Origin: Escherichia virus TH47
Reading direction: 5' to 3' (one strand)
Length of the DNA stretch: 64,000 nt
Sequence record: MT446416.1
Of this stretch, positions 17,400-55,364 are shown piece by piece; position 1 is the first letter of the stretch, and the number at the start of each line of letters is the position of its first letter. A model generated the notes under the pieces. It saw only the letters and a list, made by a program, of their open reading frames with translations. It did not search any database and was not told the origin of the DNA. Made by a program: the position numbers and the translations under genes.

Positions 17400-17900
17400 T
17401 TGACGGGGTTTGCTTGAGCATATTTCATCCCCCCGCAGGGGAAAGAACAAAAAAGTTTGACGCTGGTGGCCTTCACATAGTTCATATCACGAATTCTCTT
17501 ACGAGGCGAAAGCGGGTTGCTCTGTTTCTCTCTATCGCGGTTCTTGTAGCAACGGTCGTCGGTCTTAAACATCCCGACACATAATACAAATACCATATGA
17601 CCAGTACTTGTATTTGATTTCACGAATTTTGGACGCAACTATTTTGTATAAATTACGACCGCAAATTTCTCATGAAATCTCCCTTAGATAATTGGTAAGG
17701 TGCGATCCTTATATGTCTATCGAGGAACTCTCTTTATCCTATTGGAGTTCTTTATACAGCCGCATTGCCGTGAGTGGTTCAAACTATGCCATCATCTAAC
17801 GGGTTTCATTTGCTGTTCGTACTGAAAGGACTACTCATCTACCCTCTACTTTTCGAGTGGATTAGGCTTCAATCATTTCCATATGGAACCTTTCAGGATT
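17400..17900. other. ORF-free island of elevated GC, function unknown
   Basis: No ORF longer than about 25 codons on either strand except an implausible 82-aa one; GC visibly higher than flanks; contains CCCCCCGCAGGGG hairpin. Confidence 0.4.
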
Positions 17901-49425: not shown

Positions 49426-49690
49426 ATTTCTCTTTATTAGCTTGTTTGGTTTTATAGTGAATGAAATCTATTAATGTAATCAAGTACAACGTCAAATAGT
49501 ACTCTTGTTGATCTGTACCTAATGATACAAAGAACTTGTGCTCATAGATTAAAACCTGTTTCTCTTCAAATGGACATTTAATCCTCTGTATAGGCTTAAG
49601 TAAATGATAGTACTTATTAAATCTATGATACATTTCTAGTTCTGTCAGTACTTTCATATTAAACACATACTCCATTAGCAGTAGCATCAC
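49415..49690 (-). CDS. family-C paralog
   Basis: Motif LGTDQQEY. Confidence 0.6.
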   Translation of the reverse strand: MMLLLMEYVFNMKVLTELEMYHRFNKYYHLLKPIQRIKCPFEEKQVLIYEHKFFVSLGTDQQEYYLTLYLITLIDFIHYKTKQANKEKYEN

Positions 49691-49880
49691 GTAAAGCTGT
49701 CAAATACTTCTGTACGGCTTGCTCTTGCTTATTTGTACCTAAAAGTATATACATCCATAATTCACTGTAATGTACATCTTGTGTATAAGGGTTGTTGTAA
49801 CTTTTTGATACTATAACATCAAATTCAGATGCATGAACCCTTGTGAACTTAAGAATATCTTTTTGTGTTATGATTCTCAT
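49659..49880 (-). CDS. family-C paralog
   Basis: Motif LGTNKQEQ. Confidence 0.65.
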   Translation of the reverse strand: MRIITQKDILKFTRVHASEFDVIVSKSYNNPYTQDVHYSELWMYILLGTNKQEQAVQKYLTALRDATANGVCV

Positions 49881-50092
49881 ATCTTTTCCTGTATAAGCTT
49901 CTTAAGAATCTCAATATGTGAATTAACAGTTCTTTATTGATGTTGTGTTCCTAAGAGTGTCAGTACTATCATCTCTGAACGCAAAAGATTTTTTTCAAGT
50001 TCACTGATATCAGTTCTTGTATCAAGTACTAAAAATTCTTGACTATTTTTTCTGAATAATGCCAAGTACTCTTGGTTTGATATTACCTTCAT
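49877..50092 (-). pseudogene. family-C copy interrupted by an in-frame TAA
   Basis: ATG at 50090-50092 (ATGA overlap with upstream stop) reads MKVISNQEYLALFRKNSQEFLVLDTRTDISELEKNLLRSEMIVLTLLGTQHQ then TAA at 49934-49936, then in frame RTVNSHIEILKKLIQEKI to TGA at 49877; neighbour has QERFVNEHIRALL at the same place. Confidence 0.55.
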
Positions 50093-50319
50093 AGTTTATC
50101 CCTGATGCCATTTAAAAGTGCTCTAATATGCTCATTGACAAAACGCTCTTGGGAATCTGTGTCTAGGGTGAGAAGCATTCTTAAATCTGAACTTTTGATA
50201 TGATATTCTAAATCATTATTTGATTCTTGCATCAGTTTCTGAAAGGATGAGAAGTTTGCTGCCATTAGTTCAATGTATTCTGCTGTTCCTAGGGGTTTGT
50301 GTATGTGCTGTCTGTGCAT
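50089..50319 (-). CDS. family-C paralog
   Basis: Motif LDTDSQER. Confidence 0.6.
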   Translation of the reverse strand: MHRQHIHKPLGTAEYIELMAANFSSFQKLMQESNNDLEYHIKSSDLRMLLTLDTDSQERFVNEHIRALLNGIRDKL

Positions 50320-50531
50320 TTTAATTGTATTACCCTTTTGAGTGTATTAATGTAATTATACACATTGGCTTCTTGATAGTTAGTTCCTAGAGTAGCTTGA
50401 ACGTAGATTTCATTTAACTTAATAATTTTATCCGTATCTGGTAGTTTTGATGTGTTAATGGCAAATAACTTCAAAAACAGTCCATTTATGATTGTTCTGT
50501 ATTCTTCTCCGGTAATGATTCGCATTTGCAT
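50289..50531 (-). CDS. family-C paralog
   Basis: Motif LGTNYQEA. Confidence 0.65.
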   Translation of the reverse strand: MQMRIITGEEYRTIINGLFLKLFAINTSKLPDTDKIIKLNEIYVQATLGTNYQEANVYNYINTLKRVIQLKCTDSTYTNP

Positions 50532-50737
50532 GTTCTCAGTACTGATTCTTTAAGTTCATTGATGTAGCACTCTACATATTCTTCTTGTAGGTTTGTTCCG
50601 ATATGTAACAGTACTCTTAAATCTGCTCTCAGTACTTCTTTGTCATCTTCATCTATATCAGACAGTGTTATGTTTAAGAATTTACTTGAACTCTCTATAA
50701 GTAATATTACTGAATCACCTTTGCTTAAAATTTTCAT
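50486..50737 (-). CDS. family-C paralog
   Basis: Motif IGTNLQEE. Confidence 0.65.
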   Translation of the reverse strand: MKILSKGDSVILLIESSSKFLNITLSDIDEDDKEVLRADLRVLLHIGTNLQEEYVECYINELKESVLRTCKCESLPEKNTEQS

Positions 50738-50945
50738 AATCTCTTTTTGCTTTCCTCGCCAAAAGGTACATATACGATTCTTCGTATTGTGCTTGGTAGT
50801 TTGTGTTTAAGAGTCGAAACAACTTCTGTTCTGCTAGAACGAGTTGCTTATCTTCATAACAACGATAGCGTATCAACTTTTTGTATTCGATGTTGATTAC
50901 ATCCATTACTATAAGCCTATGTTCATCATCAGTCAAGTGTTTCAT
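50715..50945 (-). CDS. family-C paralog
   Basis: Motif LNTNYQAQ. Confidence 0.6.
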   Translation of the reverse strand: MKHLTDDEHRLIVMDVINIEYKKLIRYRCYEDKQLVLAEQKLFRLLNTNYQAQYEESYMYLLARKAKRDYENFKQR

Positions 50946-51183
50946 GCTTTTTTCTTTTCCTGATGTTCTTAGTTAAAAGGTATATTAGTTTTCTATTGTA
51001 TTCTTCCTGATAGTTTGTTCCTAATAGTGCAAGAAGTTTTGCTTCAACTAGAGCTAATTGACGTTCTTCAAATGTGTGTTCCAGTATATACTTTGGGTTT
51101 GATTTTTTAGCGTAAGCACTATTAGTTTTCATTACAATCTTATGATATTCATTAACTGTTAGGATTTTTAAATTCTTGAGCAT
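50929..51183 (-). CDS. family-C paralog
   Basis: Motif LGTNYQEE. Confidence 0.65.
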   Translation of the reverse strand: MLKNLKILTVNEYHKIVMKTNSAYAKKSNPKYILEHTFEERQLALVEAKLLALLGTNYQEEYNRKLIYLLTKNIRKRKKHETLD

Positions 51184-51409
51184 GTATCTTTTCCTTTATA
51201 GAGAATTTAAGATATCGAAGCATACTTTCAATGTAATACTCTTGTCTGTCAGTTCCAAGAAAGTACATGAGTTGAATGTATAAAACTTCTGCACTCCTTT
51301 CGGCATGTGACTTGTTTGTGTCGTTTGGAAGTTGATTTGTAAGTTTTCTGGATTTAATTAATCGTTCTTTTAACTCATCGTCTGTTAAGTATATCATTTC
51401 ACTTTTCAT
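51152..51409 (-). CDS. family-C paralog
   Basis: Motif LGTDRQEY. Confidence 0.65.
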   Translation of the reverse strand: MKSEMIYLTDDELKERLIKSRKLTNQLPNDTNKSHAERSAEVLYIQLMYFLGTDRQEYYIESMLRYLKFSIKEKIHAQEFKNPNS

Positions 51410-51629
51410 TTACTTTTTCCTTAATACTCATTACAAGATGTTCAATCATATTTTGAACCATAAATTCTTGTTTATCAGTTCCAAGAACGTATGGTAGCTT
51501 CTGAAACAATACATTCGCAGACATTTCATATATTGATTGATTTGGAACGAACTTAAGAGTAATGTTATTGGCTTTTAACATCTTCTCTTGAAATTCTTCA
51601 TTCGTTAAGTATATCATTTCATTTTGCAT
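51399..51629 (-). CDS. family-C paralog
   Basis: Motif LGTDKQEF. Confidence 0.65.
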   Translation of the reverse strand: MQNEMIYLTNEEFQEKMLKANNITLKFVPNQSIYEMSANVLFQKLPYVLGTDKQEFMVQNMIEHLVMSIKEKVNEK

Positions 51630-51855
51630 TTACTTTTTCCTTAATAGTAATTTTGAGATATTTAATTATACGTTCAATGTGATACTCTTGTCTATCAGTT
51701 CCCAGAAGATATGGTAGTGATTGGAATAAAACTTCTGCACTCCTTTCTGCTGGGGTTTGGTTTGTGTTGTGAGGAAGTTTATTTGTAAGTCTTTTGGATT
51801 TAGATAGTCTTTCTGATAACTCATCATGTGTTAAGTATATCATTTCCTTTTGCAT
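51619..51855 (-). CDS. family-C paralog
   Basis: Motif LGTDRQEY. Confidence 0.65.
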   Translation of the reverse strand: MQKEMIYLTHDELSERLSKSKRLTNKLPHNTNQTPAERSAEVLFQSLPYLLGTDRQEYHIERIIKYLKITIKEKVNAK

Positions 51856-52083
51856 TTACATTCTCTCATGTGCATTTTGGGTTAAAAGATCAATCCAGAT
51901 TTCCACATATCGTTGTTGGTGTTGCGTCCCTAACAGTACACCTAACTTGGCTTCGGACTCTAATATCATTCTGGTTTTGAACGGTAGACTTTGAAATCCT
52001 ATTGTAGCATCTAATTTGGTAATTGCATATTTGATTCGGATGAATCTTTCTTGTAATGTGATGTTGATCATTTCACAGTACAC
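51856..52083 (-). CDS. family-C paralog
   Basis: Motif LGTQHQQR. Confidence 0.65.
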   Translation of the reverse strand: MYCEMINITLQERFIRIKYAITKLDATIGFQSLPFKTRMILESEAKLGVLLGTQHQQRYVEIWIDLLTQNAHERM

Positions 52084-52346
52084 CTTAGTGGTTGGGTCAT
52101 TTGATAAAAGTACAGCTTACCTTTGATTTCCATTAGTAATTCATTTAATACGCGTTGGACCTCTGGTTCTTGATAGTTTGTCCCTAACAATGCACCCATC
52201 TTTAGCTCACGATACATAATCATCTTCTTACGGTGTTGAATTTCTGGGTTGTGATAGATTTCATTTCGTTTAGTTGAGATTTTAGCCATGCGTTCATGAT
52301 ATTCATCTGAATTTAAATTAATCATTTTTATTCTCCAAAGCATCAC
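52068..52346 (-). CDS. family-C paralog
   Basis: Motif LGTNYQEP. Confidence 0.65.
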   Translation of the reverse strand: MMLWRIKMINLNSDEYHERMAKISTKRNEIYHNPEIQHRKKMIMYRELKMGALLGTNYQEPEVQRVLNELLMEIKGKLYFYQMTQPLRCTVK

Positions 52347-52563
52347 ATTTATTTTCGATACAATTCATGAGTTCTCTAAGATAGTTTTTTACCTTACCTG
52401 ACTGATAGTTCGTCCCTAGGAAGTTGCACAACACGGCTTCTATGATTTTGATTTTCCTGATATCAGGCTTCAATTTTTTGTTATTGAAGATTTGAATCCT
52501 TATATCTCTGGATGCATTTAAACGTTTTTGATATTCATGGTAAGTTAAATTAATCATTTTCAT
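52318..52563 (-). CDS. family-C paralog
   Basis: Motif LGTNYQSG. Confidence 0.65.
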   Translation of the reverse strand: MKMINLTYHEYQKRLNASRDIRIQIFNNKKLKPDIRKIKIIEAVLCNFLGTNYQSGKVKNYLRELMNCIENKCDALENKND

Positions 52564-52778
52564 TTACGTTTAACCTCTCGCTGGAGGGCATCAATTAACA
52601 TCAGTACAGCATTCTCTTGATAGTTTGTTCCTAAGAATGAAAGCATCTTTATATCAGACACTAAAATCAACTTCTTTGAGCGTTCAATAATGTTACTATT
52701 ATAAACGGCGTTACGTGCTGGATAAGTTTTTGCAAGACGAACATAATATTCATCTTTACTTAAATTAATCATTTGCAT
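52560..52778 (-). CDS. family-C paralog
   Basis: Motif LGTNYQEN. Confidence 0.65.
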   Translation of the reverse strand: MQMINLSKDEYYVRLAKTYPARNAVYNSNIIERSKKLILVSDIKMLSFLGTNYQENAVLMLIDALQREVKRK

Positions 52779-52987
52779 TTACTTTTAACCTCTTTAATTA
52801 GTGCATCAACCCATAGGTCTACATACATTTGTTGATAGTTTGTCCCCAATAGTGCACCTACATAGAGTTCAGCTTTCATTGCGTGCTTTAGGTCAATAGG
52901 GATGCTCTTATCGTTTGATATCATTCTCCTTCTGCTGCCACATGTTTTCAGAAGCTTAACATATTCGTAACCTATTAATTTTCTCAT
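52769..52987 (-). CDS. family-C paralog
   Basis: Motif LGTNYQQM. Confidence 0.65.
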   Translation of the reverse strand: MRKLIGYEYVKLLKTCGSRRRMISNDKSIPIDLKHAMKAELYVGALLGTNYQQMYVDLWVDALIKEVKSKCK

Positions 52988-53199
52988 TCTTTTGATATCA
53001 CCTTGTTGCGTAAGGCACTTAACAATACGTCAGTGTAGATGTTTTGATAGTTTGTTCCTACGAATACACCCAACTTCATTTCAGCTATTATAACACATTT
53101 GTCCTCTTGTGCAATAGACTTGTCTAAAGAAATACTAACAACTTTCCTTCTTATAGCTTGTAACCTCCAATGATACTGATACTCATTTAGGGTTATCAT
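52984..53199 (-). CDS. family-C paralog
   Basis: Motif VGTNYQNI. Confidence 0.65.
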   Translation of the reverse strand: MITLNEYQYHWRLQAIRRKVVSISLDKSIAQEDKCVIIAEMKLGVFVGTNYQNIYTDVLLSALRNKVISKE

Positions 53200-53434
53200 T
53201 CTCTCGTCTCCATATCTCGGTTCTAATGTGTTGGCATTGTGCTTCGATGAACATATCTATTGATTTGGCAATTGCTTTTTTATCAGTGCCTGTCATCAGT
53301 ACAAGCATCTCGGCCTCACAGTGAAGTAAACGCATGATATCATAGGGTAATATTTCAGATACCGTGTCATAGTGTTTCTGTGCCAGTGTCTGCAATAGTT
53401 TACAATACATTTTGTGGTTCATTCTTTGTCGCAT
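53183..53434 (-). CDS. family-C paralog (divergent)
   Basis: Motif TGTDKKAI. Confidence 0.55.
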   Translation of the reverse strand: MRQRMNHKMYCKLLQTLAQKHYDTVSEILPYDIMRLLHCEAEMLVLMTGTDKKAIAKSIDMFIEAQCQHIRTEIWRRENDNPK

Positions 53435-53691
53435 TGTTTATTCCATTCTTTTTTGGCCTTGGTGGTTTTATATTGGATTTGGTTTCTTAATGCTGATAAG
53501 TATCGTTGAATGAACAGATCTTGATAGTTTGTCCCAATGAATTTCATAAGATAAACATCACCGTTGATAACATCCACTTCAGGTACACCATGTAATGCAT
53601 TGTTATTTCTAAGGGTTCTAATAAGAGAGAACAGGGCAGTTTGATACTCAACTCCTGATAAAATCTTCATATTTTGCGTGGATGTATTCAT
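53419..53691 (-). CDS. family-C paralog
   Basis: Motif IGTNYQDL. Confidence 0.65.
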   Translation of the reverse strand: MNTSTQNMKILSGVEYQTALFSLIRTLRNNNALHGVPEVDVINGDVYLMKFIGTNYQDLFIQRYLSALRNQIQYKTTKAKKEWNKQCDKE

Positions 53692-53905
53692 CTAGTTTAT
53701 CCTGTATAACATTCGTTAATTGATCGATATATTCTGTGCAAAACTTATCTTGATATTGAGTCCCCATAAAGTACAGCAACCATAGCTCATCAACTTTAGC
53801 TCGCATTTGGTTCCATGTAAGGGTGGGGTCATCGTAGACTATCCTTGCGACTGGGGTTAGTTTACGAACTATAGTTTCATATTCATCTTGTGTTAAGCGT
53901 CTCAT
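53648..53905 (-). CDS. family-C paralog
   Basis: Motif MGTQYQDK. Confidence 0.65.
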   Translation of the reverse strand: MRRLTQDEYETIVRKLTPVARIVYDDPTLTWNQMRAKVDELWLLYFMGTQYQDKFCTEYIDQLTNVIQDKLDEYIHAKYEDFIRS

Positions 53906-54126
53906 TTACCTAAATCCCTGACATGACATTTTAAGGCCGTGATGTGGTTGTCTACCATAACCTCCTGATAGTTTGTCCCTACAAATGGTATTAATGTTGA
54001 GTCTGTTAGTATAACATACTTTTCATTGGATGTTAGTGATTCATCATCGTAAACTTGAAGTCTAAAGTTCTTCCCTTGTTCTAATCGTTTAAGATATTCT
54101 TGAGTGTTTATGTCTTTCATTTGCAT
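53902..54126 (-). CDS. family-C paralog
   Basis: Motif VGTNYQEV. Confidence 0.65.
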   Translation of the reverse strand: MQMKDINTQEYLKRLEQGKNFRLQVYDDESLTSNEKYVILTDSTLIPFVGTNYQEVMVDNHITALKCHVRDLGK

Positions 54127-54335
54127 TTGTCCATAATGTATTTCTTGAGTGCAACTATGTGCTCATGGACATAACTTTCCTGATAGTTTGTCCCCAGTAC
54201 AGCCATCATGCGTACATCGGTGGTGTTTATCTTGTGTTCAAATCGTGTTAAGCCTTTTTTTTGTAAAAGGGTATCGTATTTGTTTAATGCATCAATGATA
54301 ATTCTCATCTTCTCTATATTACTTAAATGTTTCAT
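54117..54335 (-). CDS. family-C paralog
   Basis: Motif LGTNYQES. Confidence 0.65.
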   Translation of the reverse strand: MKHLSNIEKMRIIIDALNKYDTLLQKKGLTRFEHKINTTDVRMMAVLGTNYQESYVHEHIVALKKYIMDKCK

Positions 54336-54547
54336 ATTTTGTTTCTATGGTGCTCCATGAGTGTTTCTGTGTAGTTCTTCATGAATTTATCTTGAAACTG
54401 TGTCCCGATGAATTGTAAGACCCATAGTGCATATATTCGTTCTTCCTTGTCCACCAAAGATAAATGTATATTATTATAAATCCTTTGTTCTTTATCTAGG
54501 GTAGACAGTACACGAGCCTCGTATTCACCTTGTGTTATTTTAATCAT
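54332..54547 (-). CDS. family-C paralog
   Basis: Motif IGTQFQDK. Confidence 0.65.
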   Translation of the reverse strand: MIKITQGEYEARVLSTLDKEQRIYNNIHLSLVDKEERIYALWVLQFIGTQFQDKFMKNYTETLMEHHRNKI

Positions 54548-54759
54548 AGTTTGCTCTTAATGTATTTCTTGAGTGCATTTATATACACATTCAAGAAATG
54601 CTCCTGATAGTCTGTTCCCAAGAATGCACCCAATAGTATATCATTTTCCAATACCTCGGCTAAGTTTAAATCAGAAGTCTCTTCATATACTATGAGGATT
54701 TCAAGTTGTCTGGCAGCAACGCGTTCGGTATATTGATGTGAGTTTGTAATGATATTCAT
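54544..54759 (-). CDS. family-C paralog
   Basis: Motif LGTDYQEH. Confidence 0.65.
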   Translation of the reverse strand: MNIITNSHQYTERVAARQLEILIVYEETSDLNLAEVLENDILLGAFLGTDYQEHFLNVYINALKKYIKSKL

Positions 54760-54967
54760 AGTTTACTCTTAATGTGGTTCTTGAGTGCAAATAAGTATTC
54801 CCCTACATAATACTCCTGAAAGTCTGTATCCAAAAATGCACCCATGAGTAAATCCTTCTCCATTGCCCTTGATAAGTTAAGGTCTACGCTTGAAAGGTAT
54901 ATCAGTAAGATTTCAGCCTGTGCCGAATTGAAACGTATCTTATATTCTTCTGGTGTTAAAAAATCAT
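54756..54967 (-). pseudogene. family-C copy with frameshift in a T6 homopolymer
   Basis: ATG at 54965-54967 reads ATG ATT TTT TAA; shifting one base gives an open family-C frame ...DFLTPEEYKIRF...AFLDTDFQEYYVGEYLFALKNHIKSKL to TGA at 54756; a seventh T would restore MIFLTPEEY. Confidence 0.55.
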
Positions 54968-55170
54968 AGTTTACTCTTTATATCTTTTATTAAATGTAAA
55001 ATCCAATCATTAACAAAACTTTCTTGGAAGTTGGTTCCCAGTCCAGCCATCATCCACCACTCCGATAGAATAAACTTTTTTTCATCCCTAGATAACTCAT
55101 CTGGTATATATATATTCTTTCTATATTCGATCATAAGATTATATAGTTGAAATTGTGTGATAATTTTCAT
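54964..55170 (-). CDS. family-C paralog
   Basis: Motif LGTNFQES. Confidence 0.65.
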   Translation of the reverse strand: MKIITQFQLYNLMIEYRKNIYIPDELSRDEKKFILSEWWMMAGLGTNFQESFVNDWILHLIKDIKSKL

Positions 55171-55364
55171 AGTTTACCCGTTATATCTTCAATTAAATAT
55201 GAAATCCAATCCTTGACATACCTTTCCTGAAAGTTAGTTCCAATGAATAGTGCCATAACCAATTCACGCTTATAGGCCATACCACGTTCATGTGACTTAT
55301 ACATTATCATAGCCATGTTATTGATAAGTCTTTCGTGATGTTCTGCTTGAGTTAAAATACGCAT
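55167..55364 (-). CDS. family-C paralog (first gene of array)
   Basis: Motif IGTNFQER; GGAG SD upstream. Confidence 0.65.
   Translation of the reverse strand: MRILTQAEHHERLINNMAMIMYKSHERGMAYKRELVMALFIGTNFQERYVKDWISYLIEDITGKL

What the first reader, a model, noticed from the sequence alone, without database searches (positions are those of the whole stretch)
54756..54967. Family-C copy frameshifted in a T6 homopolymer right after its ATG
ATG ATT TTT TAA terminates after three codons, but adding one T restores a full family-C protein (MIFLTPEEYKIRF...AFLDTDFQEYYVGEY...). A homopolymer slip at codons 2-4 could be a sequencing artefact, a pseudogene or a phase-variable switch.
Basis: seen in the sequence. 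Interest (0 to 1): 0.5.

Follow-up and report, generated by a model that had tools for sequence, protein, structure and literature searches.

The report
One-base deletion breaks one phage paralog
One of about 30 tandem copies of a small jumbo-phage gene of unknown function has lost a single T from a run of seven just after its start codon; this is an ordinary very recent knockout or an assembly error, not a genetic switch.

Summary
On the minus strand, 54967→54756 reads ATG ATT TTT TAA. The -1 frame then runs open to the normal stop, and adding one T gives a full-length 70-aa protein (PHROG 4148, ortholog of phage 121Q gp322).

The window is an Asteriusvirus-type jumbo coliphage. The gene is one of about 30 translationally coupled tandem paralogs (47330-55364).

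T6 is a derived, very recent one-base deletion:
- Of 17 GenBank relatives read directly, 13 have T7 and 3 have ATTATATTA, all intact.
- An independent contig 99.74% identical over 2.7 kb has T7.
- The only other T6 record, CMSTMSU, is full of one-sided homopolymer under-calls, so its T6 is an artefact.

Nothing supports a phase-variable switch or programmed frameshift:
- The tract is short and dispensable.
- No other array copy has a 5' homopolymer.
- There is no slippery heptamer and no downstream RNA structure.
- No alternative start codon exists.

I cannot separate a real fresh pseudogene (favoured, about 0.55) from an isolated consensus error (about 0.37) without reads. The window shows no systematic homopolymer bias, and it carries other lesions that are not error-like, including a two-substitution nonsense codon in another array copy. 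Interest is low.

The parts
54756..54967 (-). Frameshifted copy of the 70-aa PHROG 4148 paralog (ortholog of 121Q gp322, fEgEco12 g060). It is 212 nt here and 213 nt in intact orthologs.
   Evidence: sequence and frames; ortholog alignment; PHROG 4148, E 1.4e-21.
54958..54963 (-). The T6 homopolymer. It is T7 in 13 of 17 GenBank relatives read and in the 99.74% identical contig L017. It is ATTATATTA in the 121Q/SHEFM2K/slurp01 clade.
54956..54958 (-). Premature TAA stop at codon 4 of the ATG frame, leaving a 3-codon mini-ORF (M-I-F).
54964..54967 (-). ATGA junction: the start codon of this copy overlaps the TGA stop of the upstream paralog (54964-55170). This is the translational-coupling architecture of the array.
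54974..54978 (-). Shine-Dalgarno-like AAGAG, 6 nt upstream of the ATG, lying inside the conserved ...IKSKL codons of the upstream copy. The same AAGAGTAAACTATGA junction recurs at the next boundary (54756-54770).
   Evidence: junction sequences. Function as a ribosome-binding site is inferred.
54756..54863 (-). Longest conventional ORF left in the restored frame: 35 aa from an internal ATG. It lacks helices 1-2 and part of helix 3 of the predicted fold, and its ATG is not conserved in orthologs.
54756..54759 (-). ATGA junction with the downstream paralog (54544-54759). Coupling to it is lost if ribosomes terminate at codon 4.
   Evidence: The consequence for coupling is inferred.
47330..55364 (-). 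Tandem array of about 30 paralogs (65-97 aa, conserved (G/D/N)TxxQ motif) in which the frameshifted copy sits.

Best explanation
The feature is a very recent, lineage-specific loss of one T (T7 to T6) at codons 2-4 of one member of a roughly 30-copy tandem array. The array genes encode small four-helix proteins of unknown function (PHROG 4148) in an Asteriusvirus-type jumbo coliphage. Ribosomes that start at the ATG, which is coupled to the upstream copy through an ATGA overlap, stop after Met-Ile-Phe. No alternative start exists in the restored frame, so this copy is functionally knocked out. It is a fresh pseudogene that has not yet accumulated further damage. It is probably tolerated because many paralogs remain, and the downstream copy keeps its own AAGAG ribosome-binding site. 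What is shown: the lesion itself, its derived state, its recency, and the absence of a rescue signal. What is inferred: that the deletion is in the phage DNA rather than only in the consensus sequence, and that the loss is tolerated through redundancy.
For: Derived and recent:
- Of 17 GenBank relatives found by DNA similarity and read directly, 13 carry T7, 3 carry ATTATATTA and 1 carries T6.
- Every other full-length hit spans one base more than the window.
- Contig L017 was found through the two flanking proteins, so it is unbiased for the middle gene. It is 99.74% identical over 2,682 bp (6 substitutions and 1 gap). The single gap is this tract: T7 and an intact 70-aa gene.
- dN/dS of the restored copy against orthologs is 0.21-0.46, the same range as among intact orthologs (0.15-0.54). 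The gene was therefore under constraint for nearly all of its history.

Real rather than artefact (circumstantial):
- Against fEgEco12 over 47.6 kb, homopolymer ±1 differences run in both directions.
- Other shorter tract states in the window are shared with other records. 17435/17455 are identical to Turkey3. The match lengths around 50954 suggest that the shorter state is shared with 4 of the 12 listed records.
- Only one indel separates the window from L017.
- The same window carries gene-breaking lesions that are not typical read errors. One is an in-frame TAA where fEgEco12 has GAG, which needs two substitutions, in array copy 49934-50092. Another is a (TA) repeat +2 that splits the g110 ortholog at about 40486.
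- Short copies are also annotated in relatives' arrays, for example 121Q gp321 at 49 aa.

No rescue: there is no start codon in the restored frame upstream of M36.
Against: A 7-to-6 homopolymer miscall is the classic assembly error, and the rest of the ORF is flawless, which is also what an error would produce. The sequencing technology and the reads of the source genome are unknown. Window-specific substitutions in the gene (3 synonymous and 3 non-synonymous codon changes) are too few to show relaxed constraint. The only other T6 record, CMSTMSU, is an artefact, so there is no independent biological replicate of the T6 state.
Confidence: 0.55

Rival explanations
1. Consensus or assembly error. 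The phage really has T7 and an intact gene, and one T was dropped in the homopolymer when the genome record was built.
For: The lesion is a single-base contraction of a 7-mer homopolymer, the commonest error type. The remainder of the ORF is intact and under normal constraint. The nearest relative (99.74% identical) has T7. CMSTMSU shows that this very tract can be under-called: it has T6 there, alongside more than 20 one-sided 1-nt homopolymer deletions in 4 kb against SP27. Its restored protein is encoded with T7 in the five contigs read, out of 12 on record.
Against: The window does not behave like an error-prone assembly. Homopolymer differences from fEgEco12 are balanced in direction. Other shorter tract states appear to be shared with independent records. 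Only one internal frameshift candidate was found among the 177 fEgEco12 ORFs with a match in the window, and it is a dinucleotide-repeat change. An isolated error in an otherwise clean 64 kb is possible but a priori rarer than a real indel at this divergence.
Confidence: 0.37
2. Leaky rescue by ribosomal -1 slippage at a 'shifty stop'. With tRNA-Phe on UUU in the P site and UAA in the A site, the tRNA can re-pair perfectly one base back (U UUU UAA). The ribosome then reads UUA-ACA-CCA... and makes the normal protein at a low level. The AAGAG Shine-Dalgarno-like element ends 10 nt before the U-run, the spacing that stimulates -1 shifting in E. coli dnaX. This would be an accidental by-product of the deletion, not an evolved device.
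For: The sequence geometry can be read directly: a U6 run followed by UAA-C, with AAGAG 10 nt upstream. The product would be identical to the T7 protein. The stimulation of frameshifting by slippery runs next to stop codons (Weiss et al. 1987) and by an upstream SD at about 10 nt (Larsen et al. 1994) comes from my own knowledge and was not tested here.
Against: There is no X XXY YYZ heptamer in the zero frame and no downstream stimulatory structure (MFE z-score -0.64). Relatives do not need a frameshift, since T7 is in frame, so nothing is conserved for this purpose. The slip site lies only three codons from the start. Expected efficiency is at most a few percent.
Confidence: 0.05
3. Phase-variable (contingency) switch. 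The T-tract is maintained so that replication slippage toggles this paralog ON (T7) and OFF (T6) in the phage population.
For: The tract sits at codons 2-4, where a length change gives a clean ON/OFF. T7 is retained in many relatives although synonymous codons could break it. Both lengths exist in public records.
Against: At 6-7 nt the tract is shorter than the A/T tracts of known contingency loci (my own knowledge: usually 8-9 or more). The 121Q/SHEFM2K/slurp01 clade has replaced it with ATTATATTA and kept the gene. None of the other 27 array copies examined has a homopolymer of 6 nt or more in its first 24 nt. The window has about 79 A/T6 runs and 20 A/T7 runs, so the tract is compositionally ordinary at 33% GC. 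The only other OFF record is a sequencing artefact.
Confidence: 0.03

Closest known systems
Escherichia phage 121Q gp322 (AIT14212.1) and its orthologs (SP27 EO157G_2960, fEgEco12 g060, Ecwhy1_451); PHROG 4148, function unknown
   Same: Same position in the array. The restored protein is 70 aa like the orthologs, with about 80-99% amino-acid identity to the 21 ortholog clusters found. It shares the DTDFQ variant of the family motif and the same ATGA junctions.
   Different: The window copy lacks one T in the run after the ATG and so cannot be translated conventionally. All orthologs read are intact except the one in the error-rich CMSTMSU record.
Homopolymer-tract phase variation (bacterial contingency loci such as those of Neisseria, Haemophilus and Campylobacter)
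   Same: A mononucleotide run near the 5' end of an ORF, where a length change switches the reading frame.
   Different: The tract is much shorter and is not conserved as a tract across clades. It is not repeated in the paralogs. No accurate record shows the alternative length. The comparison with the known loci rests on my own knowledge.
'Shifty stop' and dnaX-type -1 ribosomal frameshifting in E. coli
   Same: A run of identical bases allows P-site tRNA re-pairing in the -1 frame. It lies next to a stop codon, with an SD-like element about 10 nt upstream.
   Different: There is no canonical heptamer and no downstream hairpin. The arrangement is not conserved, and it is created only by the deletion itself.
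Homopolymer under-calls in the GenBank record MH494197 (phage CMSTMSU, flagged UNVERIFIED_ORG)
   Same: An identical T6 at the identical site.
   Different: CMSTMSU has more than 20 one-sided single-base homopolymer deletions in 4 kb and sparse gene calls. The window has an isolated lesion and balanced tract differences.

Membership tests
PHROG 4148 / 121Q gp322 ortholog group | Full-length sequence match to the family profile | tested here: met
   After adding one T: E 1.4e-21, residues 1-70 on profile positions 1-71 of 74. 99% identity to P0001.
PHROG 4148 / 121Q gp322 ortholog group | Syntenic position inside the tandem array, with ATGA junctions | tested here: met
PHROG 4148 / 121Q gp322 ortholog group | Intact translatable ORF | tested here: not met
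   Stop at codon 4, and no alternative start in the restored frame.
Pseudogene (recent loss-of-function allele) | ORF disrupted relative to intact orthologs, with the derived state confined to this lineage | tested here: met
   T7 or ATTATATTA in 16 of 17 GenBank relatives read, and T7 in the 99.74% identical contig L017.
Pseudogene (recent loss-of-function allele) | Relaxed selective constraint after the lesion | tested here: inconclusive
   Pairwise dN/dS of 0.21-0.46 reflects history before the lesion. Only 7 window-specific nucleotide changes are available.
Pseudogene (recent loss-of-function allele) | The lesion is present in the DNA molecule and not only in the consensus | not testable with these tools
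   No reads are available.
Sequencing or assembly artefact | Systematic one-sided homopolymer length errors elsewhere in the same assembly | tested here: not met
   Directions are balanced against fEgEco12. Other shorter tract states appear to be shared with other records. Contrast CMSTMSU.
Phase-variable contingency locus | Long hypermutable simple-sequence tract conserved as a tract | tested here: not met
   The tract is T6/T7 only and is interrupted in the 121Q clade.
Phase-variable contingency locus | ON and OFF tract lengths among accurately sequenced close relatives, or within a population | tested here: not met
   Among relatives, the only other OFF record is error-rich. Heterogeneity within a population cannot be tested without reads.
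Programmed -1 ribosomal frameshift | Slippery heptamer X XXY YYZ in the zero frame | tested here: not met
   The zero frame reads ATG ATT TTT TAA.
Programmed -1 ribosomal frameshift | Downstream stimulatory RNA structure | tested here: not met
   MFE -11.7 kcal/mol, z-score -0.64 against shuffles.
Programmed -1 ribosomal frameshift | The need for a frameshift is conserved in homologs | tested here: not met
   Homologs are in frame.

The most novel reading that the evidence does not exclude
The T6 allele is real and not fully dead. The U6-UAA 'shifty stop', with the array's own Shine-Dalgarno-like element 10 nt upstream, would let a small fraction of ribosomes slip -1 and make the normal 70-aa protein. 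A single-base deletion would then have turned one copy of a coupled paralog array into a low-expression allele. More generally, T7 tracts at the 5' ends of such genes could act as cheap dosage dials in jumbo-phage accessory arrays.
Probability: 0.05. Interest if true: 0.4.

Novelty: already known. Interest (0 to 1): 0.1.

Why it matters
It matters mainly for annotation. This locus should be labelled as a frameshifted copy of the 121Q gp322 ortholog (pseudogene, or 'sequence to be verified'), not as a regulatory device. It also gives a small data point that the roughly 30-copy PHROG 4148 array of Asteriusvirus jumbo phages evolves by birth and death. Copies are lost by nonsense and frameshift mutations, and copy number differs between relatives. 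The family itself is the more interesting open question: a confidently predicted four-helix domain with no structural or functional relatives outside this phage group. The frameshift adds nothing to that question.

Tried and rejected
1. An exact-pattern scan of IMG/VR for T6-T8 variants of the junction found nothing.
2. The same scan of JGI metagenomes found three AT-rich marine contigs that do not encode the family. These are chance matches.
4. Exact look-ups of three other window proteins found nothing. I therefore could not assemble a long near-identical comparator. The neighbouring contig from the same SRA run is only 97.4% identical.
5. The first tblastn frameshift scan cannot see N-terminal lesions and missed this one. 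I replaced it with a nucleotide indel census.
6. CMSTMSU's T6 cannot count as independent support. Its copy is closest to SP27, which has T7 (6 differences against 17 to the window), and the record is full of homopolymer under-calls.
7. Pfam gave no hit. Foldseek against the PDB gave nothing below E = 2.8. Literature searches found nothing on this family.
8. I tested whether the upstream 68-aa gene is a recombinant of two relatives' genes. It is not clearly so: it is a divergent g059-type copy, and the g058-type copy is absent.

Full report
**The observation**

The finding lies on the minus strand. Reading 54967→54756 gives ATG ATT TTT TAA, with a run of exactly six T (54963-54958) and a stop at codon 4. 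The -1 frame is open from just upstream of the ATG to the stop at 54758-54756. It reads ...DFLTPEEYKIRFNSAQAEILLIYLSSVDLNLSRAMEKDLLMGAFLDTDFQEYYVGEYLFALKNHIKSKL*.

Adding one T gives MIFLTPEEYK..., a 70-aa protein. It matches PHROG 4148 (function unknown) over its whole length with E 1.4e-21. It has no Pfam match. In the restored frame there is no ATG, GTG or TTG before the internal ATG at 54863.

**Context**

The window belongs to an Asteriusvirus-type jumbo coliphage of the 121Q/PBECO4 group. It is about 94% identical to WPEC3, CMSTMSU and fEgEco12 over long stretches, and no record in the phage collection is more than 97% identical to it over long stretches.

The gene is one unit of a tandem array of about 30 paralogs of 65-97 aa on the minus strand, from about 47330 to 55364. 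All carry a (G/D/N)TxxQ motif. Many neighbours are joined by ATGA overlaps, where the stop of one gene overlaps the start of the next. An AAGAG Shine-Dalgarno-like element sits inside the conserved C-terminal ...IKSKL codons. Both junctions of the frameshifted copy have this form.

An AlphaFold2 model of the 99%-identical intact ortholog P0001 is very confident (pLDDT 96.8). It shows four helices plus a β-bridge between residue 2 and the conserved motif at residue 48. The fold has no significant match in the PDB (best E 2.8). In BFVD it matches only paralogs from the same phage group. The 35-aa ORF that remains from the internal ATG lacks helices 1-2 and part of helix 3, so it is unlikely to substitute for the full protein. 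That last point is an inference.

**What relatives carry at the tract**

The ortholog is 121Q gp322. I read the tract directly in 17 GenBank records retrieved by DNA similarity, which is unbiased with respect to gene integrity:
- 13 have T7: SP27, vB_Ec-M-J, EC.P1, Ecwhy_1, fEgEco12, WPEC3, WPEC5, Turkey3, ph0011, PBECO4, UB, SD-2_S15 and BF17.
- 3 have the interrupted ATTATATTA: 121Q, SHEFM2K and slurp01.
- 1 has T6: CMSTMSU.

All other full-length hits span one base more than the window, which is consistent with an intact frame.

The most informative comparator came from an exact look-up of the two flanking proteins. Logan contig SRR13001969_678334 (L017) matches window 55373-52693 at 99.74%, with 6 substitutions and 1 gap. 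The single gap is this tract: L017 has T7 and an intact 70-aa gene.

A protein search found 21 ortholog clusters, all 70-74 aa and full length. Ten further contigs, keyed on those proteins and so biased toward intact genes, show T7 or ATTATATTA.

**The CMSTMSU T6 is not independent support**

That record is flagged UNVERIFIED_ORG and has sparse gene calls. Against SP27 it shows more than 20 one-sided single-base deletions in homopolymers within 4 kb. Its copy is closest to SP27's T7 copy, with 6 differences against 17 to the window. Its restored protein is encoded with T7 in the five contigs read, out of 12 on record. Its T6 is a sequencing artefact.

**Age of the lesion**

Nei-Gojobori dN/dS of the restored window gene against its orthologs is 0.21-0.46. 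This is indistinguishable from the 0.15-0.54 seen among intact orthologs. The ORF downstream of the tract has no further defect. Together with the T7 state in L017, this puts the deletion at the very tip of the lineage. That timing is what both a fresh mutation and a consensus error predict.

**Artefact or real?**

No tool here can decide this, but the circumstantial evidence leans toward a real mutation.
- A census of indels over 47.6 kb aligned to fEgEco12 shows homopolymer ±1 differences in both directions, mostly outside genes or at gene ends.
- Where the window has the shorter state elsewhere, it is not alone. 17435/17455 are identical to Turkey3. The match lengths around 50954 suggest that four of the twelve listed records share the shorter state.
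- The adjacent contig from the same SRA sample differs from the window by intergenic tract changes in both directions.
- The window also carries lesions that are not typical read errors. One is an in-frame TAA replacing GAG (two substitutions) in array copy 49934-50092, whose frame otherwise continues to the usual ATGA junction. Another is a (TA) repeat +2 that splits the ortholog of fEgEco12 g110 near 40486.
- Short copies are also annotated in relatives' arrays, for example 121Q gp321 at 49 aa.

Gene decay in these accessory arrays is therefore real, and a T7→T6 slip fits it. Against this, a 7→6 homopolymer miscall is the commonest consensus error, and I know neither the sequencing platform nor the reads. 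I put a real nascent pseudogene at about 0.55 and an isolated assembly error at about 0.37.

**Functional readings**

A phase-variable switch is not supported, for four reasons:
- The tract is short.
- It is dispensable, since the 121Q clade replaced it and kept the gene.
- None of the other 27 array copies examined has a homopolymer of 6 nt or more in its first 24 nt.
- At 33% GC the window holds about 79 A/T6 runs and 20 A/T7 runs, so the tract is compositionally ordinary.

Programmed -1 frameshifting is not supported either. There is no X XXY YYZ heptamer in frame, no downstream structure (z-score -0.64), and no homolog that needs a shift.

One residual possibility is accidental. With tRNA-Phe on UUU and UAA in the A site, a perfect -1 re-pairing is available, and the AAGAG element ends 10 nt upstream. 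From my own knowledge of 'shifty stops' (Weiss et al. 1987) and dnaX-type SD stimulation (Larsen et al. 1994), that geometry could give percent-level leakiness. This is untested, and I rate it about 0.05.

**Verdict**

This is an ordinary single-base homopolymer deletion that inactivates, on paper at least, one redundant copy of a lineage-restricted gene family of unknown function. It should be annotated as frameshifted or to be verified. Interest is low.

Noticed in passing
window 49877-50092 (minus strand); stop codon at 49934-49936: Another array copy is cut short by an in-frame TAA where fEgEco12 has GAG (two substitutions, no homopolymer). The frame then continues for 18 more codons to the usual ATGA junction with the next copy. 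This is a genuine nonsense pseudogene or truncated allele.
   Followed up: partly
window 40409-40632 (minus strand), around 40486: A (TA) dinucleotide repeat is one unit longer than in fEgEco12. This splits the ortholog of fEgEco12 g110 (71 aa) into two frames.
   Followed up: partly
window 50929-51183 (minus strand), tract at about 50954: There is an A6 here against A7 in fEgEco12, near the 3' end of an array copy. It changes the C-terminal residues and turns the usual ATGA junction into a 17-nt overlap with the next copy. Match lengths suggest that 4 of the 12 listed GenBank records share the shorter state.
   Followed up: partly
window about 58706-58991 (minus strand), tract at about 58720: The plus-strand tract is T7 here and T6 in fEgEco12. 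It alters the last residues of a small gene (ortholog of fEgEco12 g043) that lies just upstream of a gene whose fEgEco12 ortholog is annotated as a serine/threonine protein kinase (58074-58715).
   Followed up: partly
window about 17507-17559: A relatively GC-rich stretch of about 53 nt matches distant jumbo phages (Salmonella 7t3, Munch and SE_PL, Klebsiella fENko-Kae01, Escherichia EJP2) at 92.5%. The listed records have two matching places each. It is mostly unannotated in relatives. ARAGORN found no tRNA here and Rfam found no family. A CCCC-GCA-GGGG hairpin lies nearby at about 17430-17445.
   Followed up: partly
window 54964-55364 compared with L016 9092-9692: The window and the near-identical contig L017 have one copy fewer at this end of the array than most relatives (198, 207, then gp322-type, against 198, 201, 210, then gp322-type). 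The g058-type copy is missing, and the upstream 68-aa gene is a divergent g059-type copy. This is copy-number variation in the array.
   Followed up: partly
L005 (vB_Ec-M-J) 1-28 and 127 onward: In vB_Ec-M-J the annotated direct terminal repeat (record positions 1-21525) ends about 100 bp before the first copy of this paralog array. The array therefore abuts the terminal-repeat boundary.
   Followed up: no
P0025 (Ecwhy1_451 cluster): UniRef names this ortholog cluster 'DUF3885 domain-containing protein'. A direct Pfam scan of the restored window copy and three neighbouring paralogs gave no hit even at E up to 1.
   Followed up: partly
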